Of a stretch of DNA of 64,000 nucleotides, positions 39,299 through 56,038 are shown piece after piece (position 1 is the stretch's first letter; each line of letters opens with the position of its first letter). Origin of the DNA: Escherichia coli (GTDB lineage: Bacteria; Pseudomonadota; Gammaproteobacteria; Enterobacterales; Enterobacteriaceae). A program made the translations under genes and the position numbers. The notes beneath the pieces are model-generated. The model searched no databases. It was given only the letters and a program-made list of their open reading frames with translations, and was not told the origin of the DNA. The stretch lies in NCBI RefSeq assembly GCF_041886205.1, contig NZ_CP169029.1; one strand, given 5' to 3'.

Positions 39299-41470
39299 AT
39301 GAGTCAAACCATAACCCAGGGCCGTTTACGCATTGACGCCAATTTTAAACGTTTTGTGGATGAAGAAGTTTTACCGGGAACAGGGCTGGACGCTGCGGCG
39401 TTCTGGCGCAATTTTGATGAGATCGTTCACGATCTGGCACCAGAAAATCGTCAGTTGCTGGCAGAACGCGATCGCATTCAGGCGGCGCTTGATGAGTGGC
39501 ATCGCAGCAATCCGGGGCCGGTAAAAGATAAAGCGGCCTATAAATCTTTCCTGCGTGAACTGGGCTACCTGGTGCCGCAACCGGAGCGCGTGACGGTGGA
39601 AACCACGGGCATTGACAGCGAAATCACCAGTCAGGCGGGGCCACAGCTGGTGGTTCCGGCAATGAACGCCCGCTACGCGCTGAACGCGGCGAACGCTCGC
39701 TGGGGCTCACTGTACGATGCGTTATACGGCAGCGACATCATCCCGCAGGAAGGGGCGGTGGTCAGCGGCTACGATCCGCAACGCGGTGAGCAGGTTATCG
39801 CCTGGGTTCGGCGTTTCCTCGATGAATCTCTACCGCTGGAAAACGGCAGCTATCAGGATGTGGTGGCGTTTAAGGTGGTCGATAAACAATTACGCATCCA
39901 GTTGAAAAATGGTAAAGAAACCACGTTACGTACCCCGGCGCAGTTTGTCGGTTACCGTGGCGATGCCGCTGCGCTGACCTGCATTTTGCTGAAAAATAAC
40001 GGCCTGCATATTGAACTGCAAATTGATGCCAACGGGCGGATTGGCAAAGACGATCCGGCGCACATCAACGATGTTATCGTCGAAGCGGCCATCAGTACCA
40101 TTCTCGACTGCGAAGATTCGGTCGCGGCGGTTGATGCGGAAGATAAAATCCTGCTGTACCGCAATCTGCTGGGCCTGATGCAGGGGACTCTGCAAGAGAA
40201 AATGGAGAAAAACGGTCGACAAATCGTGCGTAAACTGAATGACGATCGTCATTACACCGCCGCCGATGGCTCTGAAATTTCTCTGCACGGACGCTCGCTG
40301 CTGTTTATCCGCAACGTGGGTCATTTGATGACCATTCCTGTGATTTGGGACAGCGAAGGCAATGAAATCCCGGAAGGCATTCTTGATGGCGTCATGACTG
40401 GCGCGATTGCCCTCTATGATTTAAAAGTGCAGAAAAACTCGCGCACTGGCAGCGTCTATATTGTGAAACCGAAAATGCACGGTCCGCAGGAAGTGGCGTT
40501 CGCCAACAAACTGTTTACCCGCATTGAGACAATGCTCGGTATGGCACCGAATACCCTGAAAATGGGCATTATGGATGAAGAACGTCGGACCTCGCTGAAC
40601 TTGCGTAGCTGTATCGCTCAGGCGCGCAACCGCGTGGCGTTCATCAATACCGGTTTCCTCGACCGTACCGGCGATGAAATGCATTCGGTGATGGAAGCTG
40701 GCCCGATGCTGCGTAAAAATCAGATGAAATCGACGCCGTGGATCAAAGCCTACGAGCGTAATAACGTGCTTTCCGGCCTGTTCTGTGGGCTGCGCGGTAA
40801 AGCGCAAATCGGTAAAGGCATGTGGGCAATGCCGGACCTGATGGCAGACATGTACAGCCAGAAGGGCGACCAACTGCGTGCCGGGGCAAACACAGCCTGG
40901 GTTCCGTCACCAACCGCTGCTACGCTCCATGCGCTGCACTACCACCAAACCAACGTACAGAGCGTGCAAGCCAACATTGCCCAGACCGAGTTTAATGCTG
41001 AATTTGAACCGCTGCTGGACGATCTGCTGACTATTCCGGTTGCTGAAAACGCTAACTGGTCGGCGCAAGAGATCCAACAAGAGCTGGATAACAACGTGCA
41101 GGGGATTCTGGGGTACGTGGTGCGCTGGGTGGAGCAGGGGATTGGTTGTTCAAAAGTGCCGGATATTCACAATGTGGCGCTGATGGAAGACCGCGCAACG
41201 CTGCGTATCTCCAGCCAGCATATCGCCAACTGGTTACGTCACGGTATTCTGACCAAAGAACAGGTGCAGGCGTCGCTGGAGAATATGGCGAAAGTGGTTG
41301 ATCAGCAAAACGCTGGCGATCCGGCTTACCGTCCGATGGCGGGGAATTTCGCTAACTCGTGTGCTTTTAAAGCTGCCAGCGATTTGATCTTCCTCGGCGT
41401 GAAACAGCCAAACGGTTATACCGAACCGTTATTACACGCCTGGCGTTTACGCGAAAAAGAAAGTCATTAA
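39299..41470 (+). CDS. glcB: Malate synthase G (723 aa)
   Basis: [36 protein letters not shown]... recognised as GlcB. Confidence 0.97.
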
Positions 41471-41824
41471 TAGCGTCAAAAAAGCCCCGGCAAGTTTTAT
41501 TGTCGGGGCTATGATAGTAACTGCGGTAGTACATTTATCCCGGAAATAACCGGAGCGATTATCAGGGTTTAACAATATTAAATACCCGTAGCGCATTACT
41601 AGCGGGCCTAAAACAACAATATGGACATCTTAACGATACTCTGCGCCTGCGTGTGCGGAACAGAAACCCTTACCCGATATACTTGTTATGCCAGAGGTAG
41701 CAATTGCGTTAGCGGCGTACTGTTGCTGTAAAGTATAACGTCTATATTTTACAGTTCAGTCCTCTTTTGCTTATTACAACCTTAAGTATATCAAGCATAT
41801 AAAGATAATAAGAGACTGAACAAT

Positions 41825-43507
41825 ATGGTTACCTGGACCCAAATGTATATGCCAATGGGAGGACTGGGGCTATCCGCTCTGGTCGCCCTGATCCCGATAA
41901 TATTCTTCTTCGTTGCACTCGCGGTATTACGTCTGAAAGGACATGTCGCTGGAGCAATAACCCTTATATTATCTATCCTGATTGCAATATTCGCCTTTAA
42001 AATGCCGATTGATATGGCATTTGCTGCTGCGGGCTATGGCTTTATTTATGGATTATGGCCAATTGCGTGGATTATTGTCGCGGCGGTGTTCCTGTATAAA
42101 TTAACCGTTGCCAGCGGGCAGTTCGATATTATCCGCAGCTCGGTTATCTCCATCACCGACGATCAGCGTTTGCAGGTGTTACTGATTGGTTTCTCCTTTG
42201 GTGCGTTGCTGGAAGGAGCGGCTGGCTTTGGTGCTCCGGTGGCGATTACCGGTGCGCTGCTGGTGGGCCTGGGCTTCAAACCGTTATACGCGGCGGGGTT
42301 GTGTCTGATTGCCAACACTGCGCCAGTGGCGTTTGGTGCGTTGGGCGTGCCGATTCTGGTCGCCGGTCAGGTAACGGGAATCGATCCGTTCCACATTGGC
42401 GCAATGGCGGGACGCCAGTTACCGTTCCTGTCGGTTCTTGTGCCGTTCTGGCTGGTAGCAATGATGGACGGCTGGAAAGGGGTGAAAGAGACGTGGCCAG
42501 CGGCGCTGGTTGCTGGGGGAAGCTTTGCTGTCACTCAGTTCTTTACCTCTAACTATATTGGTCCGGAACTGCCGGATATTACTTCGGCGCTGGTGAGTAT
42601 CGTCTCACTCGCTTTATTCCTTAAAGTCTGGCGGCCGAAAAATACCGAAACGGCAATCAGCATGGGGCAATCCGCAGGTGCGATGGTGGTAAATAAGCCA
42701 TCTTCTGGCGGTCCCGTGCCTTCAGAATATAGTCTGGGGCAAATCATTCGTGCGTGGTCACCGTTTTTAATCTTAACGGTGCTGGTCACCATCTGGACCA
42801 TGAAGCCGTTTAAAGCGTTATTTGCTCCGGGCGGCGCGTTTTATTCACTGGTGATTAATTTCCAGATCCCTCATTTGCATCAACAAGTGTTGAAAGCGGC
42901 ACCCATTGTCGCCCAACCAACGCCAATGGATGCGGTGTTTAAATTCGACCCTCTCTCGGCTGGCGGCACCGCTATTTTTATTGCGGCGATTATCTCTATC
43001 TCCATCCTCGGTGTTGGGATCAAGAAAGGTATTGGCGTCTTTGCCGAAACGCTAATTAGCTTGAAGTGGCCGATACTGTCGATTGGCATGGTGCTGGCGT
43101 TCGCCTTCGTCACCAACTATTCTGGCATGTCCACCACGCTGGCGCTGGTACTGGCAGGTACAGGCGTGATGTTCCCGTTCTTCTCACCGTTTCTCGGCTG
43201 GCTGGGCGTATTCCTTACCGGCTCGGACACCTCCTCTAACGCCCTGTTTGGTTCACTGCAATCGACCACGGCGCAGCAAATCAACGTCTCTGACACTCTG
43301 CTGGTGGCAGCAAATACCAGCGGCGGCGTAACTGGCAAGATGATCTCCCCGCAATCTATCGCCGTGGCCTGCGCCGCGACGGGCATGGTGGGCCGGGAAT
43401 CTGAACTGTTCCGCTACACCGTGAAGCACAGTCTGATTTTTGCCAGCGTTATCGGCATTATCACGCTGTTGCAGGCGTATGTGTTTACCGGGATGTTGGT
43501 AAGTTAA
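41825..43507 (+). CDS. glcA: Glycolate/lactate:H+ permease GlcA (560 aa)
   Basis: [39 protein letters not shown]... LctP family. Confidence 0.96.
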
Positions 43508-43533
43508 TAGAATAGTTATGCCTGACGTTAATA

Positions 43534-43570
43534 CAAACCCAGTCTATCAGACTGGGTTTGTTAGTATTTC
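43534..43570 (+). terminator. Rho-independent terminator of glcA
   Basis: Perfect 12-bp stem CAAACCCAGTCT (43534-43545), loop ATC, AGACTGGGTTTG (43549-43560), followed by a T-rich tail TTAGTATTT. Confidence 0.65.
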
Positions 43571-43815
43571 CGATATCAGACAGGGAAAATGCCTGGTCAG
43601 AAATGGGGCGTAATTCGGTTTTCTCAAAAAAGTAAAAAACGCCTTGTGGGCGGGGGATTATCTTACGACATGTAATTTGTTCCATACTTTTAAACTCCCC
43701 ATTGTTATGAAGTAAAGGCGTTATCTTTTTATCCGTTCAAACTTTAGCTCAAATTTGTAGCATGCAGATTCCGGTATTTTTCCTGATACCAGAAAAAAGT
43801 CACTGGAGGAAAGGT

Positions 43816-43831
43816 TGTGATAAAAATCACA
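43816..43831. promoter_or_regulatory. Candidate CRP-cAMP site (TGTGA-N6-TCACA) upstream of the jet operon
   Basis: TGTGATAAAAATCACA has both consensus half-sites perfect with the correct 6-nt spacer. Its centre lies about 96 nt upstream of the jetA ATG. Confidence 0.45.
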
Positions 43832-43919
43832 AATTAAGTCAGGTTACTGGAGATAAAGTCTGCAACAGAGAATTATCGTAGTCTGTGTACCTCAACCAGT
43901 ATTTTAAAGGCTCTGTTAC

Positions 43920-45416
43920 ATGGAAGAAAACACAAGGCAGCGTACAGAAAATTATATTTCAGCAAAAAACCAGCATCCCGCCTGGATACTCCTTGCCACT
44001 CGCCGTGCTCCACTGGTATTGAGTTGCCTGAAAACGCTTTTTGAAAAATCACATGATGGCATTCCCCTTGAGGAAGCTATTCAGTCTCTTTCCAGTATTC
44101 TCATTGAGCATGTGAGTCAGGAACAGTATGACATTAATCAGGACAATCCATTTCTTCAGGCCAGTCGTGAACTGCGGGAGTGGATTAAACGCCGTTTAAT
44201 TGTCGAACGGGATGGCCGTATTTTTGCTACCGATGCGCTTGAGGTCGCGATTACGTTTGTAGAGTCTCTGGATAATCGTTTTATGACCTCTACGGCTTCC
44301 CGTTTGTCCACCGTTCAGCGAGAAATTGAAAACCTGGAAACACGGCTTAATCCTAACCCGGCAAACCGGGTTGCAACCTTACGTCGTCGTATTTCTGAAC
44401 TGGAACGCGAACTACAGGAGGCAGAAGCCGGGCATATTGAGGTGCTGGAAACGCACCAGGCGGTTGAGCATATTCGTGAGGTCTACAATTTAGCTTCCAG
44501 CCTGCGGGCTGACTTTCGTCGTGTTGAAGACTCCTGGCGTGAGGCTGACCGCGCTCTTCGCCAATCCATTATTGGTGAGCAATATCATCGCGGCGATATA
44601 GTAGAACGCCTGCTCAACGATCAGGACGCGCTGCTTAATACGCCGGAAGGAAGAGTTTTCGACAGCTTTCAGCAACAGCTCCGTCAATCTTCTGAACTTA
44701 AAGCGATGAGTGAACGATTACGTGTGATCCTTAGCCATCCTTCTGCTTCTGATGCGCTTAACCGTCTACAGCGTCACGATCTGCGCTGGCTGGTTAAACG
44801 TCTGGTCGATGAATCGCAAACTGTCCTCCAGGCTCGCGCCCGTAGCGAGCGTGATGTCCGTGGTTTCATGAAAACCGGTCTTGCTGCTGAACATCATCGT
44901 GTTGGTCATTTGCTTAATGAGTTTCTGAATCTGGCGTTAAAACTCGACTGGCAGCGCCAGATGATTCGTAAACAAGAGGTGCCGCTACCTGCCGTTGGTG
45001 TGGCGGTAACAGGCATCCCCGCTATTGAACGTTTACGTTTTAAAGAGGTGGATGATGAAGCAGAGCAGACGTTGGATCTCAGTAATCATGCGGCGGATTT
45101 AACGCAGATTGGCGATGATTTCTGGGATGCCTTCAATGGCCTCGATCGTGAGGTGTTGATTCAGCAGACGTTGCAGCTTCTTGCAAAAGAAAATCGCCCC
45201 GTTGGCCTGGCTGAACTGGCGGCGCTGTTACCCCCGGCTCACGATCTCGAAACATTCGCCGTCTGGATTGGTATGGCAAGAGAAGCGGGTATTGAGGTTA
45301 TTGATTCACAGCGTGAATTTGCAGAGCTTAGTGATGGGGAAGGTCGCCGCTGGCGATTTAATCTGCCCACCACCGGTCTGGAAAGTCAGGCATTAATGGA
45401 TATCGATTGGGAGTAA
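43920..45416 (+). CDS. jetA: Wadjet JetA (DUF3375-like, kleisin-like subunit, 498 aa)
   Basis: First gene of a 4-gene coupled operon. Helical protein of matching size, in the position of JetA/MksF-like DUF3375 proteins. Confidence 0.8.
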   Translation: MEENTRQRTENYISAKNQHPAWILLATRRAPLVLSCLKTLFEKSHDGIPLEEAIQSLSSILIEHVSQEQYDINQDNPFLQASRELREWIKRRLIVERDGRIFATDALEVAITFVESLDNRFMTSTASRLSTVQREIENLETRLNPNPANRVATLRRRISELERELQEAEAGHIEVLETHQAVEHIREVYNLASSLRADFRRVEDSWREADRALRQSIIGEQYHRGDIVERLLNDQDALLNTPEGRVFDSFQQQLRQSSELKAMSERLRVILSHPSASDALNRLQRHDLRWLVKRLVDESQTVLQARARSERDVRGFMKTGLAAEHHRVGHLLNEFLNLALKLDWQRQMIRKQEVPLPAVGVAVTGIPAIERLRFKEVDDEAEQTLDLSNHAADLTQIGDDFWDAFNGLDREVLIQQTLQLLAKENRPVGLAELAALLPPAHDLETFAVWIGMAREAGIEVIDSQREFAELSDGEGRRWRFNLPTTGLESQALMDIDWE

Positions 45417-45421
45417 CAGGT

Positions 45422-46171
45422 ATGACGGGCTTTTTTGACAGGCTGATTAACCGGAGCGTTACCGCAAATGCAGGCTGTGAACCAGAACCATCGGATGAGG
45501 AGGTTACCGATGAGTCGGTTGAAGAAAGTTTGGCCAGTAGTGAAACGCGGACGCTAAAAAAAATACGTGAAGCGACTCAGGAATTGCTCAAATACGGCCT
45601 GCTGGAAGAGGCCAGTAAGCCCAATCTGTACCGCATCGTACTGAGCCATCCTGAAGAGGTTACTCGTATTCTGGAGCCTCTCGATCTGGATATCGGCATT
45701 GATGAGATCCGTGGCCTGCTGTATGTCAAAGTCAGGCTTGATGAAACGCCTGCGCAGGATGAATGGGCCCACCCTCTGGTGAGGCGGCAACGACTAAACC
45801 TGGAACAATCTTTATTAGTTGCCATACTGCGCCAACATTTTGTGGCCTGGGAGCAGGAAAGCGGAACCGGTGCCAGTCAGGCACAGATCGCCATCGATGA
45901 TCTTCTCCCTCAACTCCAGATTTATCTTGGCGACCCGGGCAGTGAATCAAAAGAACGCACCCGATTGCTTACCCTGCTGGATCAATTAAAGGGGCATGGG
46001 CTGGTGACGTCGCCGGATGCACATGAGCGGATCGTCATCCGTCCGATCATTGCTCATCTTGCCGATCCGATCAATCTTCAGGCATTACTGGCATGGCTGC
46101 GAGAGCAAATTGCCCAGCAAACCTCTCCAAATGACGCGCGAGAAAAGGATAGCAGCGAGGAGGACGTATGA
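45422..46171 (+). CDS. jetB: Wadjet JetB (DUF4194-like, MksE/KITE-like subunit, 249 aa)
   Basis: Sits in ORF 45407..46171. ATG at 45422, 8 nt after a GGAG. Acidic N- and C-terminal tails (EPEPSDEEVTDESVEESL, DSSEEDV). Ends in an ATGA overlap with jetC. Confidence 0.8.
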   Translation: MTGFFDRLINRSVTANAGCEPEPSDEEVTDESVEESLASSETRTLKKIREATQELLKYGLLEEASKPNLYRIVLSHPEEVTRILEPLDLDIGIDEIRGLLYVKVRLDETPAQDEWAHPLVRRQRLNLEQSLLVAILRQHFVAWEQESGTGASQAQIAIDDLLPQLQIYLGDPGSESKERTRLLTLLDQLKGHGLVTSPDAHERIVIRPIIAHLADPINLQALLAWLREQIAQQTSPNDAREKDSSEEDV

Positions 46172-49100
46172 ATCAGGTATCTGGCCTGGCTGGAAAGGAA
46201 TCTTTCATTCTTACCCGTATTGAGTTGTTCAACTGGGGCGGTTTTCATGGATTGCATCAGGCAGCAATCCATCAGGATGGTACCGCCGTTATTGGCCCAA
46301 CCGGGAGCGGAAAAACAACGTTGGTCGATGCCCTGATGACTCTGCTTTGTGCCAATCCTCGCTACAATCTGGCCTCAACTGGCGGGCATGAAAGCGACAG
46401 GGATCTTATCTCTTACGTCCGCGGCGTATCCGGTCCTGGCGATGGCGGTGAAGGGCAATCGCATATTGCCAGACCAGGTAAAACCGTGACAGGTATTGCT
46501 GCTACGCTGGAGCGCGAAGGAAAACAGGTCCGTCTGGGGGCGTTATTGTGGTTTGATTCCACCAGTTCCAGCGTGACGGATATGAAAAGGCTCTGGCTGT
46601 TCAGCGATAATCCCGGGCAGACGCTGGAGCATTGGCTAAACGTTTACCATGAGGGAGGTACACGTTTGCTCCGACAGATGGAAAAAGAAGCCATCGGGCT
46701 CTGGACATACCCGAATAAAAAGCAGTATCTGGCGCGCCTGCGGGATTTCTTCGAGGTGGGGGAAAACGCGTTTACGTTGTTAAACCGGGCGGCAGGGTTA
46801 AAACAACTCAACAGTATTGATGAGATTTTTCGCGAGCTGGTGTTAGACGATCACTCCGCCTTTGATCGCGCGGCTGAAGTGGCCAATAGTTTTGATGGTC
46901 TGACTGAGATTCATCAGGAACTGGAAACCGCTCGCAAACAACAGCAGTCTTTACAACCTGTCGCCCTGAGCTGGGAGAAGTACCAAAAGCAAGAGCGTCA
47001 ACTGGCTGACTGGCAGACGCTGGAATCGCTGTTACCCCTCTGGTTTGCACAACAGGCAAACCACCTCTGGCGGGAAAAGATTAACCTTCTTAACGCAAGG
47101 CTCGCTGAGGCACAAACCAGCGAAGAACAGCTCCAGTCACAGCTTGATTTGCAAAAAAAGGTGGTTAGCGACTGTATGCAGCGTTATCTCCAGGTCGGCG
47201 GTGCCAATATTGATGAACTGAACGAGCGTATCAAGGACTGGCAAAAAACGCTCGGCAGTCGAGAGGCATTGGCGCGTCAATATCAACAGCTGACCCGTAA
47301 CCTTGGATTGCCGTCTGATCTGATCCAACCACAGCTGGAGGCGAATCAGCATGAAGCCGCGGCCCTATGTGAGCAGATCGCCGTTGATATAAAGTTGAAA
47401 CAGGAAGAAGCGTATCAAAAAGGTGCGCTTAGCCATCACATTACCGAAGAGCTTCGGGAACGGGAAAATGAACGCGCCGAGATCGCGCGTCGTCCGGATT
47501 CTAACCTTCCCGCACATTATCAGGCGTTTCGTAGCGAGCTGGCAAAAGCGTTGAACGTGGATGAGTCTGAACTGCCTTTCGTCGCTGAACTGATACAGGT
47601 TAAACCGGAAGAGGCGCAATGGCGCGGTGCGATTGAGCGTGCTGTCGGGAGTAACAGGCTGCGTATTCTGGTTGCGCCTGAATCGGCACAGGAAGCGCTG
47701 CGCTGGGTAAATCAGCGCAACAACCGTCTGCATGTGCGGCTACTGGAGGTCAAATTACCGCACTCTCCCGCCCGGTTCTTCGACGATGGCTTTACCCGCA
47801 AGCTGTTGTGGAAAGATCATCCGTGGCGAGAGGCCGTCAAAGCATTACTGGCCGAAAGCGACAGGCATTGTGTTGACAGCCCTGAACAACTGCGTGACAC
47901 GCCTCATGCTATGACGGTGCAGGGATTAATGTCTGGTAAACAGCGTTTTTATGACAAGCATGATCAGAAACGCCTTGATGAAGACTGGCTGACGGGATTC
48001 GATAACCGCGATCGCCTGAACTTCCTTGCTAAAGAAATTACCACGCTTCAGGAGCAGGTTAAAACCGCAAACGCGGCATTTGAGTTTGCGAAAGGCGAGG
48101 TGGGGATTTTGCAAAATCAGGCTGCTTCCTTCCAGAAAATAGAACAAATTGATTTCGATAGCATCGATGTTCCCGGCGCGAAGAGCCAACTGGACGCGCT
48201 CAGGGAGCGGCTGGAAAATCTGACCCGCCCGGATTCTGACGCCAGTGTAGCGAAAGCAAAACTTGATGAGGCTCAAACGGTTGAATCTGAACTCGATAAG
48301 CAGCTCAGAGCTGCCAATAAAGTCACTAACGTGCTGGATACAGAACTCACATCAGCCCGTGCCGCGGAACGTAAGGCCCAGCAAACTGCACAACAAGGTA
48401 TGAAGGAAGAAGAGCGAGAGTTGTGCGCGTCACATTTTCCAGTGGTGACTTTGGAGCAATTGCCTGACATTCGCGATTTAGAACGTCAACATGAGCGGGG
48501 AATTCAGCATGAAATTGAAAGAGTTAAAGCTGAACTACATCGACTGAACATTGAGTTGACCAAACGTATGTCTGAAGCCAAACGTGTGGATACCGGGGCG
48601 CTCGTTGAGGCAGGGACTGATTTGGACGATATTACTGTTTATTTACAGCGTTTGCAGGAACTGACCGAAGAAGCCCTGCCGGAAAAGCTCAATCGCTTCC
48701 TTGATTATCTTAACCGTTCATCCGATGACGGCGTAACACAACTGCTTAGCCATATTGAGCATGAGGTGCTGGTGATTGAGGAGCGCCTCAATGAACTCAA
48801 TGAAACTATGTTCAGGGTTGATTTTCAGCCGTATCGCTACCTGCGTCTGGATACCAAAAAAGTTGTCCATGAAAGCCTGCGCACGCTTGAAAAAGCACAG
48901 CGTCAGCTAAATGCCGCCCGATTTGTTGATGATAATGGCGAGAGCCATTATAAGGCTTTGCAGATACTGGTGGCGCAATTGCGGGATGCTTGTGAACGAA
49001 ACCGTACCCTGGGAGCAAAAGCGCTACTGGATCCCCGTTTTCGACTGGAGTTCGCCGTATCGGTGATGGATCGTCAGAGCGGAAATGTGATTGAGTCTCG

Positions 49101-49455
49101 TACCGGCTCACAGGGTGGTAGCGGTGGAGAAAAAGAGATTATCGCTTCTTACGTGTTAACAGCTTCACTTAGCTACGCACTTTGTCCTGCGGGGAGCCGT
49201 TATCCGCTTTTCGGTACCATTATCCTTGATGAAGCCTTCTCCCGCAGTTCTCATGCGGTGGCGGGTAGGATCATTGCCGCGCTTAGAGAATTTGGCTTAC
49301 ATGCAGTATTTATCACCCCCAATAAGGAAATGCGCCTGCTGCGTGACCATACTCGTTCGGCGATTGTTGTCCACCGGCGCGGTCAGAATTCCAATATGGC
49401 TTCTCTGAGCTGGGAAGAGCTTGAACGACACTACCAGCGACGGGGGAACGCGTAG
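46168..49455 (+). CDS. jetC: Wadjet JetC (SMC/MukB-like ABC ATPase, 1095 aa)
   Basis: Walker A GPTGSGKTT (nt 46294-46320). About 800 aa of E/Q/L/R-rich coiled coil. C-terminal signature-like GGSGGEKE and Walker B TIILDEAF. Confidence 0.88.
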   Translation: MNQVSGLAGKESFILTRIELFNWGGFHGLHQAAIHQDGTAVIGPTGSGKTTLVDALMTLLCANPRYNLASTGGHESDRDLISYVRGVSGPGDGGEGQSHIARPGKTVTGIAATLEREGKQVRLGALLWFDSTSSSVTDMKRLWLFSDNPGQTLEHWLNVYHEGGTRLLRQMEKEAIGLWTYPNKKQYLARLRDFFEVGENAFTLLNRAAGLKQLNSIDEIFRELVLDDHSAFDRAAEVANSFDGLTEIHQELETARKQQQSLQPVALSWEKYQKQERQLADWQTLESLLPLWFAQQANHLWREKINLLNARLAEAQTSEEQLQSQLDLQKKVVSDCMQRYLQVGGANIDELNERIKDWQKTLGSREALARQYQQLTRNLGLPSDLIQPQLEANQHEAAALCEQIAVDIKLKQEEAYQKGALSHHITEELRERENERAEIARRPDSNLPAHYQAFRSELAKALNVDESELPFVAELIQVKPEEAQWRGAIERAVGSNRLRILVAPESAQEALRWVNQRNNRLHVRLLEVKLPHSPARFFDDGFTRKLLWKDHPWREAVKALLAESDRHCVDSPEQLRDTPHAMTVQGLMSGKQRFYDKHDQKRLDEDWLTGFDNRDRLNFLAKEITTLQEQVKTANAAFEFAKGEVGILQNQAASFQKIEQIDFDSIDVPGAKSQLDALRERLENLTRPDSDASVAKAKLDEAQTVESELDKQLRAANKVTNVLDTELTSARAAERKAQQTAQQGMKEEERELCASHFPVVTLEQLPDIRDLERQHERGIQHEIERVKAELHRLNIELTKRMSEAKRVDTGALVEAGTDLDDITVYLQRLQELTEEALPEKLNRFLDYLNRSSDDGVTQLLSHIEHEVLVIEERLNELNETMFRVDFQPYRYLRLDTKKVVHESLRTLEKAQRQLNAARFVDDNGESHYKALQILVAQLRDACERNRTLGAKALLDPRFRLEFAVSVMDRQSGNVIESRTGSQGGSGGEKEIIASYVLTASLSYALCPAGSRYPLFGTIILDEAFSRSSHAVAGRIIAALREFGLHAVFITPNKEMRLLRDHTRSAIVVHRRGQNSNMASLSWEELERHYQRRGNA

Positions 49456-49456
49456 G

Positions 49457-50605
49457 ATGTATTCCCCAGATGAATTGCGTGAAAAGCTTGCCCGGCAGTG
49501 GGATAGCGCAAAACTTCGGGCTGAACGCTTACTGTCCCCCGGTAACTGGCCGCTCTGCCTGCCTATTGGTAAACCTTCCACGAAAATATTTGCAGAGCAG
49601 ACTCAGCGCGTTTTGCAGCACGTACAGCGATGGAGGCAAGTTGCGGTTGGGCACGTGGAATGGGAAGCGGTGAGTTATCGGGCAAGTGATACATCAGTAT
49701 TAATGCCGTTGCGCTGGATTCTGAATAGCCCTTCTGAGTGGATCAACGCCGCTGCGGATCCGGTTGTGAGCCGGGAATTTCGCTTGCTGGAAGGAATTAT
49801 TGAACAAGTTAATCCCATTTTTCACCCGCTGTTGGTAAAGCATCGCTCTCTCTGGCGGCACAAAGATCCGCAGGGCGTCATCAGCGCCGCCACGCTGGCC
49901 TGCCGATTAGAGCCGGGCTGCGCAAAAGGGCTGCCGTTAAGATTGCTTTCCGGGCAAGGAGTGGATACCAAATTTATCGAGAATAATATTTCGTTATTAA
50001 CCCGACTGTTAGACGTGCGGTTTTCAGGAGAAGCCAGCGAGCAGGGATTAACAACTTTTCTTGATGCTTTTGATGAGTCCAGTCACTGGGTTTTAGTTGT
50101 ACCATTATCACCCGGCTTACTTCCTTTTAAAAAATGCCGGGTAACAACGGCGGAACTGGCAGAAACAACATTACCTGCGTCGCAAGTACTGGTGGTTGAA
50201 AATGAGCAGTGTCTGCATCATCTTCCAGCATTATCTGACACTATCGCGATTTTAGGCTGTGGCCTGGACGTGCAATGGCTATCCAGTTCTGTTCTGGATG
50301 AAAAACGCGTTGCTTATTGGGGGGACATGGATAGCTGGGGATTACTGATGCTGGCGAGAGCCAGGCGCTGTCGTCCGACGCTTGATGCCCTGCTCATGAA
50401 CCGTGAGTTGTTTGAGCAGTATGCCAGTCATAGCGCCGTTCCAGAACCGGTCATAGCGAAGGAAGCTGTACCTGATGGCTTGCTTAACGAAGAGGCCGAT
50501 TTTTATCGCTACTTAACCCGTTTACCGTGTGGTCGTCTGGAGCAGGAGTTTTTGCCAGTGGGGATTGCGGAAGAGGTGCTTCTCAGGTGGGGAAAAGAGA
50601 GTTAA
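49457..50605 (+). CDS. jetD: Wadjet JetD (DUF3322/DUF2220-like Toprim nuclease subunit, 382 aa)
   Basis: Sits in ORF 49421..50605. ATG at 49457, 1 nt after the jetC TAG. C-terminal Toprim signature: VVENEQ (around nt 50197) and YWGDMDSWG (DxD, around nt 50331-50351). Confidence 0.85.
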   Translation: MYSPDELREKLARQWDSAKLRAERLLSPGNWPLCLPIGKPSTKIFAEQTQRVLQHVQRWRQVAVGHVEWEAVSYRASDTSVLMPLRWILNSPSEWINAAADPVVSREFRLLEGIIEQVNPIFHPLLVKHRSLWRHKDPQGVISAATLACRLEPGCAKGLPLRLLSGQGVDTKFIENNISLLTRLLDVRFSGEASEQGLTTFLDAFDESSHWVLVVPLSPGLLPFKKCRVTTAELAETTLPASQVLVVENEQCLHHLPALSDTIAILGCGLDVQWLSSSVLDEKRVAYWGDMDSWGLLMLARARRCRPTLDALLMNRELFEQYASHSAVPEPVIAKEAVPDGLLNEEADFYRYLTRLPCGRLEQEFLPVGIAEEVLLRWGKES

Positions 50606-50963
50606 AAAAGTCATGCTTGCTCTGGAAGGTTATTTACGCGGTATTTTGTAGTGGTTGTTGCGAAAGTCTGCGTTGATGGTCCTGATACCTTACCGGGTAG
50701 AGGGACTTTCCATCAGTCAGTTTAGATACTGTGGCAACTGTCGCCTTTAGGTGGACAAATGCATAAATTATTAAACTATTAAATTTCTTGTTTTCAGGCA
50801 GCAGAGAGAAGGTATATCAGAGGGTACTGAGGTGTATAAACGTCACGAACATCCGTGAAAAGGCGAAAAAAACCAGCCAATAGATAATGCTTTGCAATGG
50901 CCAGAAATCTACCGTAGCCAGAAAGTGAAAAAGCCCCGCTTTGCAGCGAGGCCTTATGAATAG

Positions 50964-50985
50964 TGGTGCCGGACTCGGAATCGAA
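50964..50985 (-). other. tRNA-Phe 3'-end fragment: distal att repeat of a pheV/pheU-type genomic island
   Basis: The minus strand reads TTCGATTCCGAGTCCGGCACCA. The E. coli tRNA-Phe 3' end is TTCGATTCCGAGTCCGGGCACCA, so the fragment matches over all 22 nt and lacks one G of the 23-nt tRNA end. No upstream tRNA body is present. Confidence 0.8.
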
Positions 50986-51382
50986 GAATGCTTCTATCAT
51001 GTTGATATTATTTTATTTTGTTTGGTTTGGTGAAATATGTACCCTCTTTTGTACCCGCAGTCCCTTTTGATATCGAAAGGGAATCAAACTCGGGGTCAGG
51101 CTGAGAGCACAGAAGGAAAGTGCCTGGCTATTATATCGTTAATTCTGTCAATCAGCTCCAGCCTTTTGAAAGTGATGTGTGCAGATCCACCCTTCTTAAA
51201 GTATTTAATGATGAACATCTCATCTTCATAGCGTCCTTTACCCTGAACGGACTGTATGTGGTCATCCAGATTAATGGTGATATTCCCTCGGTTGTCGGGG
51301 ATCGGTTTACCGCTGAGCAGATGCAACATTCTTTCCAGGTCAGCCAGGCGATCTGCCTGCATTCCACTGATAAGATGAAATC

Positions 51383-52736
51383 TATGGTCACCCCCGTTTT
51401 TGCAACACTGATTTTTGATTAATGGTTGGCTTGCTTAAATCTATCCGGCGTCTCTGTGGGCAAGGATGCCCGCGCCCCGATGAGTTCCGCACCTGATAAT
51501 CCTAAAAATCCCCTCGGCTTCAGTGAGCCATTTCATCTGTTAGGTTTTTAATCAGGTCGATTTGCCGTTCATGTCATCAATAATCAGTCTTCGCAAAACC
51601 AGAAAGGTAACTTGTATCTTATTGTTTAAAATAAACTAATTGAGTTATATCAGCATCTATATCAGGCCTGATATTCTTTTTTCTGAGTAGTGATTGCCCA
51701 GGCAATTCGAGCCAGTTTATTTGCCAGAGCGCAGGTAACCACATTCGAATGCTTCTTGTTGAGTTGCTCCCGAACCCACTCAGCAAGTTTTCCATGCTTG
51801 CGTTCAAGTCGCATTATGAATGAGCGGGCACACTGAACCAGTAACCGGCGTAAATTTTTATCACCTCGCTTACTGATACCCAACAGAGTCGATTTTCCTC
51901 CAGTGCTATACTGCCGGGGAACAAGTCCTGTGGAAGCTGCAAAATCCCTGCTGCATGAGAACTGTTTCCCGTCACCAAGTTGCGACGATAGTAAGCTGGC
52001 AGTAATCGGACCAACACCAGGAATTGTCATAATGCGCTGAGCGGTATCATCAGCGTTGATTGACTGACTTAATTCTGATTCCAGCTCTGCTATTTGCTCA
52101 ACAAGGTAAAAGTAGTGGGTATGCAACCTCACCAAAAGGCGGCTCAGATATTCGGGGATTTCGTGTTCAGCCAACACGAGAGACAACCGTTTTATTACAG
52201 CATCACCTATCGGCAGGCTGATTCCAAATTCCAGCAAGAAACCGTGGATCTGGTTGGTTGTTTTCACTTTATCTCTGATGAGCGATTCTCTGACCCGGTG
52301 TAACGCCCTCATGGCCTGCTGGGTCTCAGTTCTTGGCTGGACAAAACGCATTGATGGTCGTGAAGCCGCTTCGCATATGGCTTCTGCATCAACAAAATCA
52401 TTCTTATTACTTTTGACAAACGGGCGAACGAACTGTGGAGAAATCAGCTTAGTTTCATGCCCAAAATCAGAGATACAGCGAGCCATAAAGTGTGCACCCG
52501 CACAGGCTTCCATTACAACAACTGAGGGCGGACATGTCGCCAGAAACTGCATCAGTTTAGTACGGGTAAATTTTTTACGCAGAAGAGCCTTACCAGACTT
52601 GTCTTGACAATGAATGTGGAAGGAGTGCTTTCCGAGATCGATACCAATAAGTGTGATGTTCTGCATGATGGTCTCTCCGTTAAAGGGATTTACCTTAACA
52701 GCGTACTGCTGTTAAGGTGGGGGTGACCATATCATT
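51383..52736 (-). mobile_element. IS110-family insertion sequence (~1.35 kb, IS1111-like layout with a long 3' non-coding end)
   Basis: Perfect 13-bp inverted repeats TATGGTCACCCCC (51383-51395) and GGGGGTGACCATA (52719-52731). ATC sits on both flanks (51380-82 and 52737-39). Single DEDD-type transposase ORF. Confidence 0.85.
51662..52666 (-). CDS. IS110-family DEDD transposase/recombinase (334 aa)
   Basis: N-terminal LIGIDLGKHSFH (RuvC-like DEDD). C-terminal IPGVGPITASLL...GLVPRQYSTGGKSTLLGISKRGDKNLRRLL, typical of IS110/IS1111 transposases. Confidence 0.9.
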   Translation of the reverse strand: MQNITLIGIDLGKHSFHIHCQDKSGKALLRKKFTRTKLMQFLATCPPSVVVMEACAGAHFMARCISDFGHETKLISPQFVRPFVKSNKNDFVDAEAICEAASRPSMRFVQPRTETQQAMRALHRVRESLIRDKVKTTNQIHGFLLEFGISLPIGDAVIKRLSLVLAEHEIPEYLSRLLVRLHTHYFYLVEQIAELESELSQSINADDTAQRIMTIPGVGPITASLLSSQLGDGKQFSCSRDFAASTGLVPRQYSTGGKSTLLGISKRGDKNLRRLLVQCARSFIMRLERKHGKLAEWVREQLNKKHSNVVTCALANKLARIAWAITTQKKEYQA

Positions 52737-53121
52737 ATCCCCACTGGTCCCATCTCACCAGATTGTTGACGATAATTTTACTGCCAAATTTACAGGGTGA
52801 GTTGGTTTTGTAATCCCAGCTCAGCCCTTTGAAGACGTTGATCACTCCCCGTTCAAACACTTCATCTTTGTTCTGGTGCAGTTGTTCAAATGTGCTCAGA
52901 ATGTTCGCTTCGCTGATTTCCGGAAAATTATCATATTCCAGTGACCTGGACCTGACTGAGGTGGAGCAGATAACGTCCGTATTCTCGTTGACCACTTCCG
53001 GACGGGAGACTGTGATTTCAGACATAATCGATATTCCTTTTTGCAGATAAATGAAAACGCCAGCCGTGTTCAGGCTGGCGTCAGTGGAATGAAGTCTGGT
53101 GAGTGAGATGATGAGTGAGAC

Positions 53122-53319
53122 TCACCGGTTCTGGTGCTGAAGCTGCAGTTGGCGCAGGGTACGGATATCCTCTCTGGCCTGTTCGATACAGGGCAACAGT
53201 GCTGCTGAATCCGTTTTATCCTCATTGTTGTCAAAGATAATTCCCGATTCGCAGTCGATATTGTCCTGCAGCCACGCAATCAGAATATCCAGCGCTGTTT
53301 CCGTGGTTAATGATTTCAT
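53122..53319 (-). CDS. DUF957-like small island protein (65 aa)
   Basis: Sits in ORF 53122..53364. Start MKSLTTETALDILIAWLQDNIDCESGIIFDNNEDK at 53319. Common at the end of CP4-type islands. Confidence 0.65.
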   Translation of the reverse strand: MKSLTTETALDILIAWLQDNIDCESGIIFDNNEDKTDSAALLPCIEQAREDIRTLRQLQLQHQNR

Positions 53320-53330
53320 GTTGTTTCTGG

Positions 53331-53819
53331 TTACCAGTCGAAAGTGGGTAAACCCGGCAGGCATTCAGCGCTGGCATCCAGATGAATGAGACTGACGCCA
53401 TAACGTCGGGTAAGTGTGACAACCAGACGGCGGAACGTTTTTGACAGCCCCAGGCGTTTAAGCCGCAGAACCGGGTATGACCACGCATCGGTACGTAACA
53501 GATATCCGCTACCTGTGAAATGAATCCATTCTGATTCGCCGGTGTCATTCGTCTGATGTGACAGCGAGTACAGCCAGGCGTTGTCCTTTGCAGTGATATG
53601 CGCGGTACTGCAGCGTATGCCGGTCAGGGCAGCAAATGGTGGCGTGCAGTCTGTTGAGACCCGGTCAGATTCATCAACAACACGAAGGGAGTGGCCATTG
53701 TCGCAGACCACGTTAATCAGTTCAGCGAGATTAACACCATCGACGTCAACGACAATTCGTCCCATGTTCAGCGCCTGCACGTTAACGCTGTCTGCTTCCA
53801 GCGTCAGAGTCAGTTTCAT
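53331..53819 (-). CDS. YeeW-like island protein (162 aa)
   Basis: Lies immediately downstream of and overlapping the CbtA-like toxin gene, where yeeW homologs sit in CP4-44-type islands. Confidence 0.65.
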
Positions 53820-54193
53820 TGTTTCGCCTCCGGATGCTTCCCCTGGGTAATGTTATTTACCGTTCTGTAATTGTCGCGGGTCATCAGGCCGGTCGCCCTG
53901 CGAGCCCGGAGGATATCGATGCTGTTTATTAACTGAGAACGGGTACAGGCACTGAATTCCGGCTGGTCGGTACGCACCAGTGCGTATTTTTCAACAAGAA
54001 AGTTCACTGCATCGCACAGTGAAATGCCAGCTTCAATATGCTGCTCAATCACACATTCATCGGCAAACGGTGTGTCATTCAGTGTGAGGCCATAATGCTG
54101 GTCCAGCAGTCGGATGAGCAGTGTCTGCCAGATGGTGACGGGAGACGGGCAGCGAGATACCTCCCGTACATGTGTGTCGGATAATGTTTTCAT
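53816..54193 (-). CDS. CbtA/YkfI/YpjF-family type IV toxin (125 aa)
   Basis: Sits in ORF 53816..54337. Start [45 protein letters not shown] at 54193. Confidence 0.85.
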
Positions 54194-54239
54194 CTTAAGT
54201 TCTCTGTAACTGGTAGTGCTAAAGGTGAGAGCTTCGGGG

Positions 54240-54614
54240 TTATGAGGTGGTTGCGGGTGTCTGTGCCGGATAAACAGCCAGATAAACGTAACCACAGGAG
54301 CCGAGGGTGTCGGCTTCGCAGGTCTGCCCTTTTGCATACAGCGTGACGGTATGCTGATTTCGGGGATTCAGTTCACCGCTGGTGAGCATGAGCTCCAGTT
54401 GTTTCATCAGCAGCGGAAAGGCCTGGTCCAGATGGTATGCATCTGCGTCGCTGAAGCGGCCTCTGATACCGGCGCGGTCGGCAAGGTAATGCAGGCGGTT
54501 ACCCTCCTGCACCAGACGGGCACCAAAACAGGGCCTCACTGTGCAGGGAAGCCCCCACCAGGGGCGGTCGTGATTGTCGTCGGGATGAGTTATCCCGGAG
54601 AGTTTGTCTGACAC
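54240..54614 (-). CDS. CbeA/YeeU-family type IV antitoxin (124 aa)
   Basis: [49 protein letters not shown]... recognised as the YeeU/YfjZ/YafW family. Lies directly upstream of the toxin. Confidence 0.88.
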
Positions 54615-54776
54615 GATAAAATCCTCTCTGAAAAGTGGTTAAGAATGGTTTAACGATGACAGGTCAGCCGGCGCGCTGACCGGTTTCGGTGAAGATGTAT
54701 GCATTGACAAGAATGGCCTCATCCACAGCGGCGTCTGAGTCCATCTGGTCGTACTCGTTTTCCGGGTGACGGAACA

Positions 54777-54998
54777 TCAGTTCAGGGTGACGCTCATCAG
54801 CCGGACATACGGGCCAAAACTGTCCTTATGGCGTTCAGCAAACACGGCCAGCACACCGGGAATATCCTGCACTTCACGACCGGTATACGCTTCAGTGCTG
54901 CCGTGCCAGCGGTATTTGCCGGTACAGAAAGGAAAAAGACGGGATGCCGGATGTTGTTGGTGAATACGCATGGCTTCACCACGGGTGATGATTTTCAT
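54777..54998 (-). CDS. YeeT/DUF987-family protein (73 aa)
   Basis: MKIITRGEAMRIHQQHPASRLFPFCTGKYRWHGS... recognised as the YeeT family. Confidence 0.8.
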   Translation of the reverse strand: MKIITRGEAMRIHQQHPASRLFPFCTGKYRWHGSTEAYTGREVQDIPGVLAVFAERHKDSFGPYVRLMSVTLN

Positions 54999-55060
54999 AG
55001 TGGGATACCTCTGAAGACAGAAGATAAAAGTGAAAACAGGTGTGATGTGGTTGTGACGGG

Positions 55061-55537
55061 TTAAAGCAGACCATGTTCGGCAAAGGAGAAAACCTGGTTG
55101 CCACCGACTATCAGATGGTCCGGCACCCGGATATCCACCAGGGCCAGTGCCTGTACCAGACGTTCGGTGATAAGCCGGTCTGCCTTACTGGGTGTGACTT
55201 CACCGGACGGGTGATTGTGTGCCAGCACCACGGCAGCGGCATTGTGATACAGGGCGCGTTTAATCACTTCCCGGGGATGGACTTCCGTGCGGTTGATGGT
55301 GCCGGTGAAGAGGGTTTCACCGGCAATCAGCTGATTCTGGTTGTTCAGATACAGCACCCGGAACTCTTCACGCTCCAGTCCCGCCATGTTCAGAATCAGC
55401 CATTCTCGTGCCGCACGGGTGGAGGTGAAGGCCACGCCGGGTTCATGAAGATGGCGGTCCAGGGTTTTCAGGGCCCGTTGAATGAGACTGCGCTCGCCGG
55501 GCGTCATTTCTCCGGGCAGAAAGGAAAGCTGCTGCAT
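55061..55537 (-). CDS. RadC-like JAB-domain protein (YeeS/YkfG/YfjY family, 158 aa)
   Basis: Sits in ORF 55061..55552. Start MQQLSFLPGEMTPGERSLIQRAL. JAMM motif HNHPSGEVTPSKAD. Confidence 0.85.
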   Translation of the reverse strand: MQQLSFLPGEMTPGERSLIQRALKTLDRHLHEPGVAFTSTRAAREWLILNMAGLEREEFRVLYLNNQNQLIAGETLFTGTINRTEVHPREVIKRALYHNAAAVVLAHNHPSGEVTPSKADRLITERLVQALALVDIRVPDHLIVGGNQVFSFAEHGLL

Positions 55538-55552
55538 TGTCCCTGCCTCCAT

Positions 55553-56038
55553 TCAGTCGATGATGCGCATAATGGCGCTGCATTCCGGATGCTGCAGGGC
55601 GTAATCCCGCAGCCGGTAATAATGGACCGTCATGGCATAACACTCCGTACGACAGGCGTGATGACTGTACGTCATCAGACAGGCAGCAATGCCGGCGGCT
55701 TCCGGGCTCATTTCAGCGCGGTTGCCGTTCATGGCATTGAACAGTACCCATGTTTCGTCATCATCGTCATCCGGTTCGGGGGCCATAAATGCCCCGCCGT
55801 TGTTCAGAGTGTACAGATTCCAGATACCACCGCAGTAGTCTTCGCACAGACGGTCCATCCAGCCGAAAACACGGGGCTCCAGGGTCACCCACTGTGGAAT
55901 GAGGCCAAAATGCTGCGGCCAGAAGCTGATGCGCTGTTCATCAGGGACTATGGTGGCAACCAACTGAGGCTGGTCATTCCCTGATGCAGCGGTTACGGAA
56001 ACAGAAGATGTGGTGGAATTATGTGAAATGGTTTTCAT
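55553..56038 (-). CDS. Antirestriction protein (KlcA/ArdB-like, YfjX/YafX family, 161 aa)
   Basis: Sequence and position (between the DUF932 and radC-like genes) match the antirestriction genes of CP4-type islands. Confidence 0.75.
   Translation of the reverse strand: MKTISHNSTTSSVSVTAASGNDQPQLVATIVPDEQRISFWPQHFGLIPQWVTLEPRVFGWMDRLCEDYCGGIWNLYTLNNGGAFMAPEPDDDDDETWVLFNAMNGNRAEMSPEAAGIAACLMTYSHHACRTECYAMTVHYYRLRDYALQHPECSAIMRIID

What the first reader, a model, noticed from the sequence alone, without database searches (positions are those of the whole stretch)
43920..50605. Four-gene SMC-type operon (JetABCD / Wadjet-like) next to glcA: candidate anti-plasmid DNA-sensing system
**Seen in the sequence**
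- Four co-directional ORFs are tightly coupled: a 5-nt gap with a GGAG RBS, an ATGA overlap, and a TAGgATG junction.
- The third protein (1095 aa) has an N-terminal Walker A GPTGSGKTT. About 800 aa of heptad-like E/Q/L/R-rich sequence follow, and it ends with GGSGGEKE and the Walker B IILDEAF. That is an SMC/MukB/Rad50 architecture.
- The fourth protein ends in a Toprim signature, VVENEQ followed by GDMDSWG (E ... DxD).
- The second protein is small with acidic tails, and the first is helical and about 500 aa.

**Established knowledge**
- This order and these sizes match DUF3375, DUF4194, SMC ATPase and DUF3322/DUF2220, which is the Wadjet (JetABCD, MksBEFG/EptABCD-like) system.
- In that system JetABC loop-extrudes DNA to recognise small circular molecules, and JetD then cleaves them.

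**Inference**
- The operon is accessory and is not chromosome-maintenance machinery. It sits in a variable locus beside a genomic island.
- It would have been unrecognisable as an immune system from annotation alone, since all four products carry only DUF or ATPase labels.
Basis: partly seen in the sequence, partly recalled or inferred. Interest (0 to 1): 0.92.

Follow-up and report, generated by a model that had tools for sequence, protein, structure and literature searches.

The report
Known E. coli Wadjet anti-plasmid operon

Summary
Window 43920-50605 (+) holds four tightly coupled genes: jetA (498 aa), jetB (249 aa), jetC (1095 aa) and jetD (382 aa).

Pfam gives DUF3375, DUF4194, AAA_29 plus SbcC_Walker_B, and DUF3322 plus JetD_C. 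PADLOC type I models JetA1, JetB1, JetC1 and JetD1 match over essentially their full length.

All four proteins match solved PDB chains of E. coli GF4-3 JetABCD (8as8, 8bfn, 8q72 and others) end to end. Amino-acid identity to GF4-3 is 98.0-99.6%. JetC K49 and E1022 and JetD E248, D290 and D292 are all present.

Published work on the GF4-3 system shows ATP-dependent cleavage of circular DNA. Linear DNA is spared. In vivo, JetABCD systems restrict circles up to about 100 kb. No effect was seen on the five phages tested.

The operon lies between glcA and the pheV tRNA site, just outside a pheV-integrated island. Full-length copies occur in 8 of 5426 complete E. coli genomes. Three of the six I translated carry jetA W206*, and 18 other genomes keep only remnants.

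Verdict: already known, an allele of the model system. Native expression in this strain is untested.

The parts
43533..43561 (+). Terminator-like hairpin after glcA (13-bp stem followed by a T-rich tail). It probably insulates jetABCD from glcA transcription.
   Evidence: (pattern scan only) and the sequence.
43562..43919 (+). Upstream non-coding region in which the native jet promoter is presumed to lie. No promoter was identified. The whole 412-nt glcA-jetA spacer (43508-43919) occurs only in E. coli genomes that carry jet or a jet remnant.
   Evidence: the spacer is found in 13 of 5426 genomes; no consensus sigma-70 site inside this stretch.
43920..45416 (+). jetA, the kleisin subunit (498 aa, DUF3375). 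No internal stop.
   Evidence: PF11855, E = 3e-106. JetA1 model, 903 bits over 1-498. PDB 8q72_E and 8as8_E; 2 of 498 residues differ from GF4-3.
45422..46171 (+). jetB, the KITE subunit (249 aa, DUF4194, MukE-like), with acidic N- and C-terminal tails. It starts at the ATG 5 nt after the jetA stop.
   Evidence: 5 of 249 residues differ from GF4-3.
46168..49455 (+). jetC, the SMC ATPase (1095 aa). It has Walker A K49, signature GGSGGEKE at 983 and Walker B D1021-E1022. None of the 14 residues that differ from GF4-3 is a hinge-channel residue (R524, K591, K601). Its start overlaps the jetB stop as ATGA.
   Evidence: PDB 8as8_A, residues 1-1095, 2413 bits; 14 of 1095 residues differ from GF4-3; 13 lie at 283-889, the fourteenth is the conservative I933V, and none touches a motif.
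49457..50605 (+). jetD, the nuclease subunit (382 aa): an N-terminal DUF3322 domain plus a C-terminal Toprim domain (JetD_C) carrying E248, D290 and D292. It starts 1 nt after the jetC stop.
   Evidence: PDB 8q72_M JetD(E248A), residues 1-382; 4 of 382 residues differ from GF4-3, including a private S80.
50606..50962 (.). Spacer between jetD and pheV. It is shared with GF4-3 and with jet-remnant genomes. It contains a minus-strand terminator-like hairpin at 50955-50930, which would serve pheV.
50963..50984 (-). A 22-nt partial copy of the 3' end of tRNA-Phe (pheV), TGGTGCCGGACTCGGAATCGAA. This is the distal direct repeat of a pheV-integrated island that begins here. It marks the right-hand limit of the jet module, so the jet operon lies outside the island.
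   Evidence: alignment with GF4-3, where the complete pheV gene starts at this exact point. GF4-3 annotation; no complete tRNA gene in the window.

Best explanation
Window 43920-50605 encodes an intact type I Wadjet (JetABCD, 'JET') system. It is an allele of the E. coli GF4-3 system.

Mechanism, as established for the GF4-3 proteins and inferred here from 98-99.6% identity:
1. JetA (kleisin), JetB (KITE) and JetC (SMC ATPase) assemble as a dimer of dimers with two oppositely oriented DNA motor units.
2. The complex loads on DNA and extrudes it using ATP.
3. On a small circular molecule, the two motors consume the whole circle and stall against each other.
4. The stalled complex rearranges and bends the last unextruded DNA segment.
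5. The JetD Toprim nuclease dimer binds this state and cuts the DNA, so the plasmid is lost.
6. Linear DNA and the chromosome never reach this state and are spared.

Shown here: gene content, order, intactness, family membership, near-identity to the characterised proteins, conservation of the catalytic residues, and accessory distribution.

Inferred: the proteins of this strain behave like the GF4-3 proteins, and the operon is expressed from its native promoter.
For: Family and structure:
- Pfam matches are far above their cut-offs.
- PADLOC JetA1, JetB1, JetC1 and JetD1 match over essentially their full length, at 903, 386, 1624 and 639 bits.
- All four proteins align end to end with PDB JetA, JetB, JetC and JetD of 8as8, 8bfn, 8q72 and the 9qx series.

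Similarity to GF4-3:
- DNA identity is 98.6%.
- Protein identity is 99.6%, 98.0%, 98.7% and 99.0% for JetA-D, with no internal stops.
- K49, E1022, E248, D290 and D292 are present.
- The hinge-channel residues R524, K591 and K601 are not among the differences.
- dN/dS against GF4-3 is 0.11, which indicates purifying selection.

Published experiments on GF4-3 JetABCD (bioRxiv 10.1101/2022.10.04.510915):
- Six circular plasmids were lost within ten generations.
- The linear plasmid pJAZZ was stable.
- JetC(E1022Q) and JetD(E248A) were inactive.
- There was no effect on T4, T6, T7, P1 or lambda plaques.

The stalled-motor, bent-DNA cleavage state is described in 10.1101/2023.11.03.565488.

Distribution: full-length copies in 8 of 5426 genomes, all chromosomal.
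Against: - Nothing contradicts the family assignment.
- Native expression is unproven. The published in vivo work used an arabinose promoter in K-12, and the simple scan found no consensus promoter in the 358 nt upstream of jetA.
- JetD in the window has a private serine at position 80, where all six compared alleles have proline. Its effect is unknown.
- The locus is decaying in E. coli generally: jetA W206* in 3 of 6 full-length copies translated, and remnants only in 18 genomes. Loss of function is evidently tolerated or favoured.
Confidence: 0.96

Rival explanations
1. The operon is intact in sequence but silent or non-functional in its native host. On this reading it is a cryptic locus on the way to being lost.
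For: - Most E. coli copies are inactivated. Three of the six full-length loci translated carry jetA W206*. Eighteen genomes retain only fragments, including a 5.6-kb internal deletion in W444.
- No consensus sigma-70 promoter was found upstream of jetA.
- JetD carries a private P80S change.
Against: - All four ORFs are open and all catalytic residues are retained.
- dN/dS against GF4-3 is 0.11, which is not the signature of a pseudogene.
- The upstream spacer differs from that of GF4-3 at 1 of 412 positions.
- A simple consensus scan cannot exclude a weak or regulated promoter.
Confidence: 0.15
2. It is a housekeeping MukBEF/MksBEF-type condensin that organises or segregates the chromosome, rather than a defence system.
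For: - JetABC is structurally related to MukBEF.
- The authors of the GF4-3 study speculate that JET might also contribute to chromosome organisation while scanning DNA ('Evolutionary implications' section).
Against: - It is present in only 8 of 5426 complete E. coli genomes and is often pseudogenised or deleted.
- It carries the Wadjet-specific Toprim nuclease JetD.
- From established knowledge, E. coli has its own MukBEF encoded elsewhere.
- JetC finds no MukB chain in the PDB at E <= 0.001.
Confidence: 0.02
3. Its main role is anti-phage defence rather than plasmid restriction.
For: Wadjet was found in a screen for anti-phage systems, and databases label it as 'Wadjet anti-phage system' (RefSeq product names).
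Against: The GF4-3 system had no obvious effect on plaque formation by T4, T6, T7, P1 or lambda. Bacillus Wadjet likewise gave no effect on phages in B. subtilis.
Confidence: 0.04

Closest known systems
E. coli GF4-3 JetABCD ('ecJET', type I Wadjet). PDB 8as8, 8bfn, 8q72 and the 9qxr-9qxx series. Liu et al. 2022 (bioRxiv 10.1101/2022.10.04.510915); Roisne-Hamelin et al. 2023 (bioRxiv 10.1101/2023.11.03.565488).
   Same: - Same species and same chromosomal site, between glcA and pheV.
- Same four genes with the same lengths and junctions.
- 98.6% DNA identity and 98.0-99.6% protein identity.
- All mutated or functional residues reported for ecJET (E1022, E248, D290, D292, R524, K591, K601) are unchanged.
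   Different: - There are 25 amino-acid substitutions: JetA 2, JetB 5, JetC 14, JetD 4. Thirteen of the 14 in JetC lie between residues 283 and 889. The fourteenth is the conservative I933V.
- In the window a pheV island is inserted just downstream, so a partial pheV repeat follows jetD instead of the intact tRNA.
Pseudomonas aeruginosa PA14 JetABCD (type I Wadjet). PDB 8dk1, 8dk2, 8dk3 and 7til.
   Same: Same four-subunit architecture. Full-length alignments: JetC 1567 bits, JetA 756 bits, JetB 309 bits, JetD 494 bits.
   Different: It is a clearly more distant orthologue from a different genus. The PA14 chains score well below the GF4-3 chains in the same searches: 1567 against 2413 bits for JetC and 494 against 856 bits for JetD.
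Corynebacterium glutamicum MksBEFG (MksG nuclease, PDB 8b7f)
   Same: An SMC-based plasmid defence system with a Toprim nuclease partner. JetD matches MksG weakly (E = 6e-10).
   Different: It is a distant relative. Only the nuclease shows detectable similarity in the PDB search.
E. coli MukBEF (housekeeping condensin)
   Same: SMC-kleisin-KITE dimer-of-dimers architecture, as described in the literature.
   Different: MukBEF has no nuclease subunit. From established knowledge it is part of the E. coli core genome, whereas jet is in 0.15% of genomes. There is no significant sequence match between JetC and any MukB chain in the PDB search.

Membership tests
Wadjet type I (JetABCD) | A four-gene co-directional operon in the order jetA-jetB-jetC-jetD | tested here: met
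   ORFs. Junctions of 5 nt, a 4-nt overlap and 1 nt.
Wadjet type I (JetABCD) | JetA kleisin with a DUF3375 (PF11855) domain | tested here: met
   356.5 bits against a cut-off of 28.6, covering 4-472 of 474 profile positions. JetA1 model, 903 bits.
Wadjet type I (JetABCD) | JetB KITE subunit with a DUF4194 (PF13835) domain | tested here: met
   98.5 bits against a cut-off of 32.7. JetB1 model, 386 bits.
Wadjet type I (JetABCD) | JetC SMC-type ATPase of about 1100 aa with an N-terminal Walker A, long coiled coils plus a hinge, and a C-terminal signature motif and Walker B | tested here: met
   AAA_29 and SbcC_Walker_B. JetC1 model, 1624 bits over residues 3-1093; motif positions K49, GGSGGEKE at 983 and E1022; end-to-end match to the solved JetC chain.
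Wadjet type I (JetABCD) | [quoted passage not shown] | tested here: met
   151.5 and 141.3 bits against cut-offs of 22. E248, D290 and D292 are present; end-to-end match to 8q72_M.
Wadjet type I (JetABCD) | Type I rather than type II or III | tested here: met
   every significant PADLOC Jet match is to a type 1 model, except one JetC2 hit at 16 bits (E = 4e-4). The closest solved relatives, GF4-3 and PA14, are described as type I in PMC10586767.
Wadjet type I (JetABCD) | ATP-dependent, JetD-dependent cleavage of small circular DNA and loss of plasmids in vivo | not testable with these tools
   This was shown experimentally for the GF4-3 proteins, which are 98-99.6% identical. It has not been measured for this allele or at native expression.
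MukBEF/MksBEF housekeeping condensin | A conserved core-genome complex without a nuclease partner | tested here: not met
   Full-length copies in 8 of 5426 genomes, with frequent inactivation. The JetD nuclease gene is present and translationally coupled.

The most novel reading that the evidence does not exclude
The most novel reading left open concerns evolution, not mechanism. In E. coli the glcA-pheV jetABCD module looks like an old, vertically inherited resident. Its divergence and GC content match those of its core-gene flanks. It is being inactivated repeatedly and independently, through jetA W206*, a 5.6-kb internal deletion, and replacement by T6SS or IS elements. This could reflect selection to admit useful plasmids. 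The one nonsense-mutant strain whose plasmids I could list carries a 34-kb plasmid as well as plasmids of 109 and 114 kb. If this held up across a phylogeny, the locus would be a natural experiment on the cost of anti-plasmid immunity. A further open possibility is that the native operon has a second role in chromosome handling.
Probability: 0.3. Interest if true: 0.3.

Novelty: already known. Interest (0 to 1): 0.08.

Why it matters
It matters little as a discovery. The system, its mechanism and its structures are published, and this allele differs by only 25 residues, none of them in a known functional site.

It has modest practical value in three ways:
- It flags a strain that probably resists small circular plasmids. 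This is relevant to cloning in the strain and to its uptake of resistance plasmids.
- It shows that RefSeq mis-annotates jetC as a fragment plus a truncated CDS, even in the reference strain.
- It shows that intact copies are very rare in E. coli, while decayed ones at the same locus are more common.

Tried and rejected
- Rfam scan of the whole window. There are no RNA families inside or immediately flanking the operon. The nearest is the known C0719 sRNA between glcB and glcA.
- Promoter and terminator pattern scan of 43400-51100. Counts are no higher than in shuffled sequence, and there is no consensus promoter in the 358 nt upstream of jetA. The native promoter therefore remains unidentified.
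- NCBIfam. No curated family names any of the four proteins. The only hits are sub-threshold SMC and SCO6880 matches. This explains the uninformative RefSeq product names.
- tRNA scan. There is no complete tRNA in the window. The pheV relationship emerged only from alignment with GF4-3.
- Plasmid collection, protein mode with JetC. The best matches are at most 50% identical (Cupriavidus, and Ralstonia megaplasmids), so there is no sign that this operon travels on enterobacterial plasmids.
- Looking up plasmids of jet-bearing strains by neighbouring accession numbers. This was informative only for FHI_NMBU_11. The other accessions were different strains or absent, so no statement about plasmid content can be made for the intact-jet strains.
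- I did not run the large protein-database searches, structure prediction or fold searches. Solved structures of near-identical proteins made them unnecessary.
- The housekeeping-condensin and anti-phage readings were considered and rejected (see the rival explanations).
Full report
**1. What is there**

The mechanical ORF list shows four co-directional open reading frames filling window 43920-50605 on the + strand, downstream of glcB (39299-41470) and glcA (41825-43507).

Reading the junctions directly gives the following:
- jetA ends ...GGGAG TAA and is followed by caggt and then ATG at 45422. The gap is 5 nt, with GGAG 8 nt upstream of the start.
- The jetB stop and the jetC start overlap as ATGA at 46168-46171, preceded by GAGGAGGA.
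- The jetC TAG at 49453-49455 is followed by one g and then the jetD ATG at 49457.

The ORF list's longer TTG-initiated versions of jetB (45407) and jetD (49421) are not the real starts. The solved GF4-3 JetB and JetD chains begin at the ATG-encoded methionines.

The gene products are therefore JetA 498 aa, JetB 249 aa, JetC 1095 aa and JetD 382 aa. None has an internal stop.

- JetC GPTGSGKTT at 43-51, so the Walker A lysine is K49.
- JetC GGSGGEKE at 983.
- JetC IILDEAF at 1018, so D1021 and E1022.
- JetD VVENEQ at 246, so E248.
- JetD GDMDSWG at 289, so D290 and D292.

**2. What it is**

Pfam assigns:
- DUF3375 to protein 1 (E = 3e-106).
- DUF4194 to protein 2 (E = 4e-28).
- AAA_29 and SbcC_Walker_B to the two ends of protein 3.
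- DUF3322 plus 'Wadjet protein JetD, C-terminal' (PF09983) to protein 4.

The PADLOC defence-system models for type I Wadjet match over essentially their full length, at 903 bits (JetA1), 386 bits (JetB1), 1624 bits (JetC1) and 639 bits (JetD1). The only hit to a type II model is a 16-bit JetC2 match.

Against the Protein Data Bank, all four proteins align end to end with chains named JetA, JetB, JetC and JetD from entries 8as8, 8bfn, 8q72 and the 9qx series. The next-best matches are the Pseudomonas aeruginosa chains of 8dk1-3 and 7til.

A search of complete E. coli genomes shows that the 8as8-type proteins come from strain GF4-3. Its chromosome carries the same operon at 98.6% DNA identity.

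Translating both copies gives:
- JetA: 2 differences in 498 residues.
- JetB: 5 in 249.
- JetC: 14 in 1095. Thirteen lie between residues 283 and 889. The other is the conservative I933V.
- JetD: 4 in 382.

None of the residues known to matter differs. These are JetC E1022, JetD E248, D290 and D292, and the hinge-channel residues R524, K591 and K601.

Across the operon there are 67 synonymous and 25 non-synonymous differences, so dN/dS is 0.11. Both alleles have therefore been under purifying selection.

**3. How it works**

The mechanism does not have to be guessed, because it was worked out on the GF4-3 proteins.

Liu et al. (bioRxiv 10.1101/2022.10.04.510915) put the GF4-3 operon under an arabinose promoter in E. 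coli K-12 and reported:
- Six circular plasmids with different origins were essentially eliminated within ten generations.
- The linear plasmid pJAZZ was stable for 50 generations.
- JetC(E1022Q) and JetD(E248A) abolished restriction.
- Plaque formation by T4, T6, T7, P1 and lambda was not obviously affected.
- The purified complex cleaved circular but not linear DNA, at random positions, and only with ATP.
- The upper size limit for restriction was about 100 kb.
- The JetABC core is a dimer of dimers with two oppositely oriented motor units.

Roisne-Hamelin et al. (bioRxiv 10.1101/2023.11.03.565488) showed what happens next. After nearly all of a circle has been extruded, the two motors stall against each other and rearrange. 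They hold a U-shaped residual DNA segment, which the JetD dimer kinks and cuts.

For the window, near-identity and intact catalytic residues are shown. The activity itself is inferred, and native expression is untested.

**4. Genomic setting**

In GF4-3 the order is glcDEFGBA, then jetABCD, then 357 nt of spacer, then tRNA-Phe (pheV, minus strand), then yqgA.

The window aligns with GF4-3 through the whole spacer. At the point where pheV begins in GF4-3, the window has only a 22-nt partial copy of the tRNA 3' end (50963-50984). Unrelated DNA follows, and there is no complete tRNA anywhere in the window.

That unrelated DNA is the far end of a typical pheV-integrated island. It contains:
- a DUF4942 gene split by an IS110-family ISSfl8 element;
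- a DUF5983 gene;
- the CbtA/CbeA toxin-antitoxin pair;
- RadC;
- an antirestriction protein;
- a DUF932 gene;
- Ag43.

The operon is not compositionally foreign. Its GC content is 51.2%, against 51.8% for the window. Its 1.4% divergence from GF4-3 is similar to that of glcA (1.25%) and glcB (0.74%).

The 412-nt glcA-jetA spacer exists only in 13 genomes, all of which carry jet or a jet remnant. The variable segment therefore runs from the glcA stop codon to pheV.

**5. Distribution and decay**

Of 5426 complete E. coli genomes, 26 have any match, all chromosomal, and 8 have the full length.

I translated six of the eight full-length copies:
- wlxctx60, CX12 and GF4-3 are intact.
- FHI_NMBU_11, JNEC-KY202 and CFIAFB20190167 share a nonsense mutation, jetA W206*.

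The other 18 genomes hold fragments at the same locus:
- A 5.6-kb internal deletion corresponding to window 44010-49586 (W444; MB53 gives the same two-piece match).
- The last roughly 600-640 nt of jetD, which in PapRG-06-5 lies next to a type VI secretion cluster.
- The first 322 nt of jetA, which in LHM10-1 lies next to an IS3 element.

The core-genome neighbours most similar to the window are themselves jet-bearing or remnant-bearing strains. This pattern fits vertical inheritance within a lineage with repeated loss. It firmly supports 'accessory, not housekeeping'.

One anecdote is worth recording. FHI_NMBU_11 has the nonsense allele and carries plasmids of 114, 109 and 34 kb. This is compatible with an inactive system, but it is a single case.

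**6. Caveats**

- No consensus sigma-70 promoter was found between the glcA terminator-like hairpin (43533-43561) and jetA. Native transcription is therefore not established.
- JetD of the window has serine at position 80, where all six compared alleles have proline. JetC has a private I647. Neither is a known functional residue.

**7. Comparison with what is known, and verdict**

This is a member of type I Wadjet by every sequence-level criterion tested (see the membership table). It is an allele of the best-characterised representative.

It is not MukBEF. It is rare, it carries a nuclease partner, and JetC finds no MukB chain in the PDB search.

The suggested experiments (Walker A or Walker B mutants, Toprim mutants, circular versus linear replicons, small versus large replicons) have largely been published for the GF4-3 allele.

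Novelty: already known. Interest is low. What remains of interest is evolutionary (repeated inactivation in E. coli) and practical (the annotation error in jetC).

Noticed in passing
window 46168-49455; L001 17249-20536; L002 14249-17536: RefSeq (PGAP) annotates the uninterrupted 1095-codon jetC ORF as two features: a 156-nt 'incomplete' ATP-binding pseudogene and a separate 448-aa 'SbcC/MukB-like Walker B domain-containing protein'. About 1.8 kb between them is left unannotated. This occurs in every genome examined, including GF4-3, whose full-length JetC has been purified and solved. It is an annotation artefact.
   Followed up: yes
L013, L014, L016 (jetA codon 206); remnants in L003, L004, L005: Three of the six full-length E. 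coli jet loci translated carry the same nonsense mutation, jetA W206*. Eighteen further genomes keep only fragments at the glcA-pheV site. In W444 the deletion corresponds to window 44010-49586. Inactivated copies outnumber intact ones.
   Followed up: partly
window 49694-49696 (JetD codon 80): JetD has serine at residue 80, where all six compared E. coli alleles, including GF4-3, have proline. JetC I647 is likewise private to the window. The functional effect of either is unknown.
   Followed up: no
window 50963-64000: A 22-nt partial pheV 3' end (50963-50984) marks the distal repeat of a pheV-integrated island that runs past the end of the window. The island holds a DUF4942 gene split into 51096-51362 and 52735-53025 by an ISSfl8 (IS110-family) insertion, whose transposase is at 51662-52666. 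It also holds a DUF5983 gene, the CbtA/CbeA toxin-antitoxin pair, RadC, an antirestriction protein and a DUF932 gene. Two large minus-strand ORFs lie at 57854-60376 and 60491-63685, in the stretch that related genomes annotate as Ag43.
   Followed up: partly
NZ_CP045712-CP045715 (strain FHI_NMBU_11): This strain has the jetA W206* allele and carries circular plasmids of 114, 109 and 34 kb. The 34-kb plasmid is well inside the size range that an active JET system restricts. This is a single anecdote.
   Followed up: partly
window 41525-41746 (-): Rfam C0719 sRNA (294 bits) lies in the glcB-glcA intergenic region.
   Followed up: no
window 5095-5165 and 16139-16215: Rfam naRNA4 (nucleoid-associated non-coding RNA 4) matches. 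The second site scores on both strands.
   Followed up: no
window 63629-63865 (-): An Rfam 'IS102 RNA' match (74.6 bits) lies immediately upstream of the large minus-strand ORF 60491-63685 in the Ag43 region.
   Followed up: no
window about 28387-32498 (-): In the near-identical wlxctx60 genome, a cluster upstream of yghO and glcC is annotated as serine palmitoyltransferase, acyl carrier protein, NAD-dependent epimerase/dehydratase and fatty acyl-AMP ligase. This looks like a small lipid or sphingolipid-like biosynthetic cluster. It was not examined.
   Followed up: no
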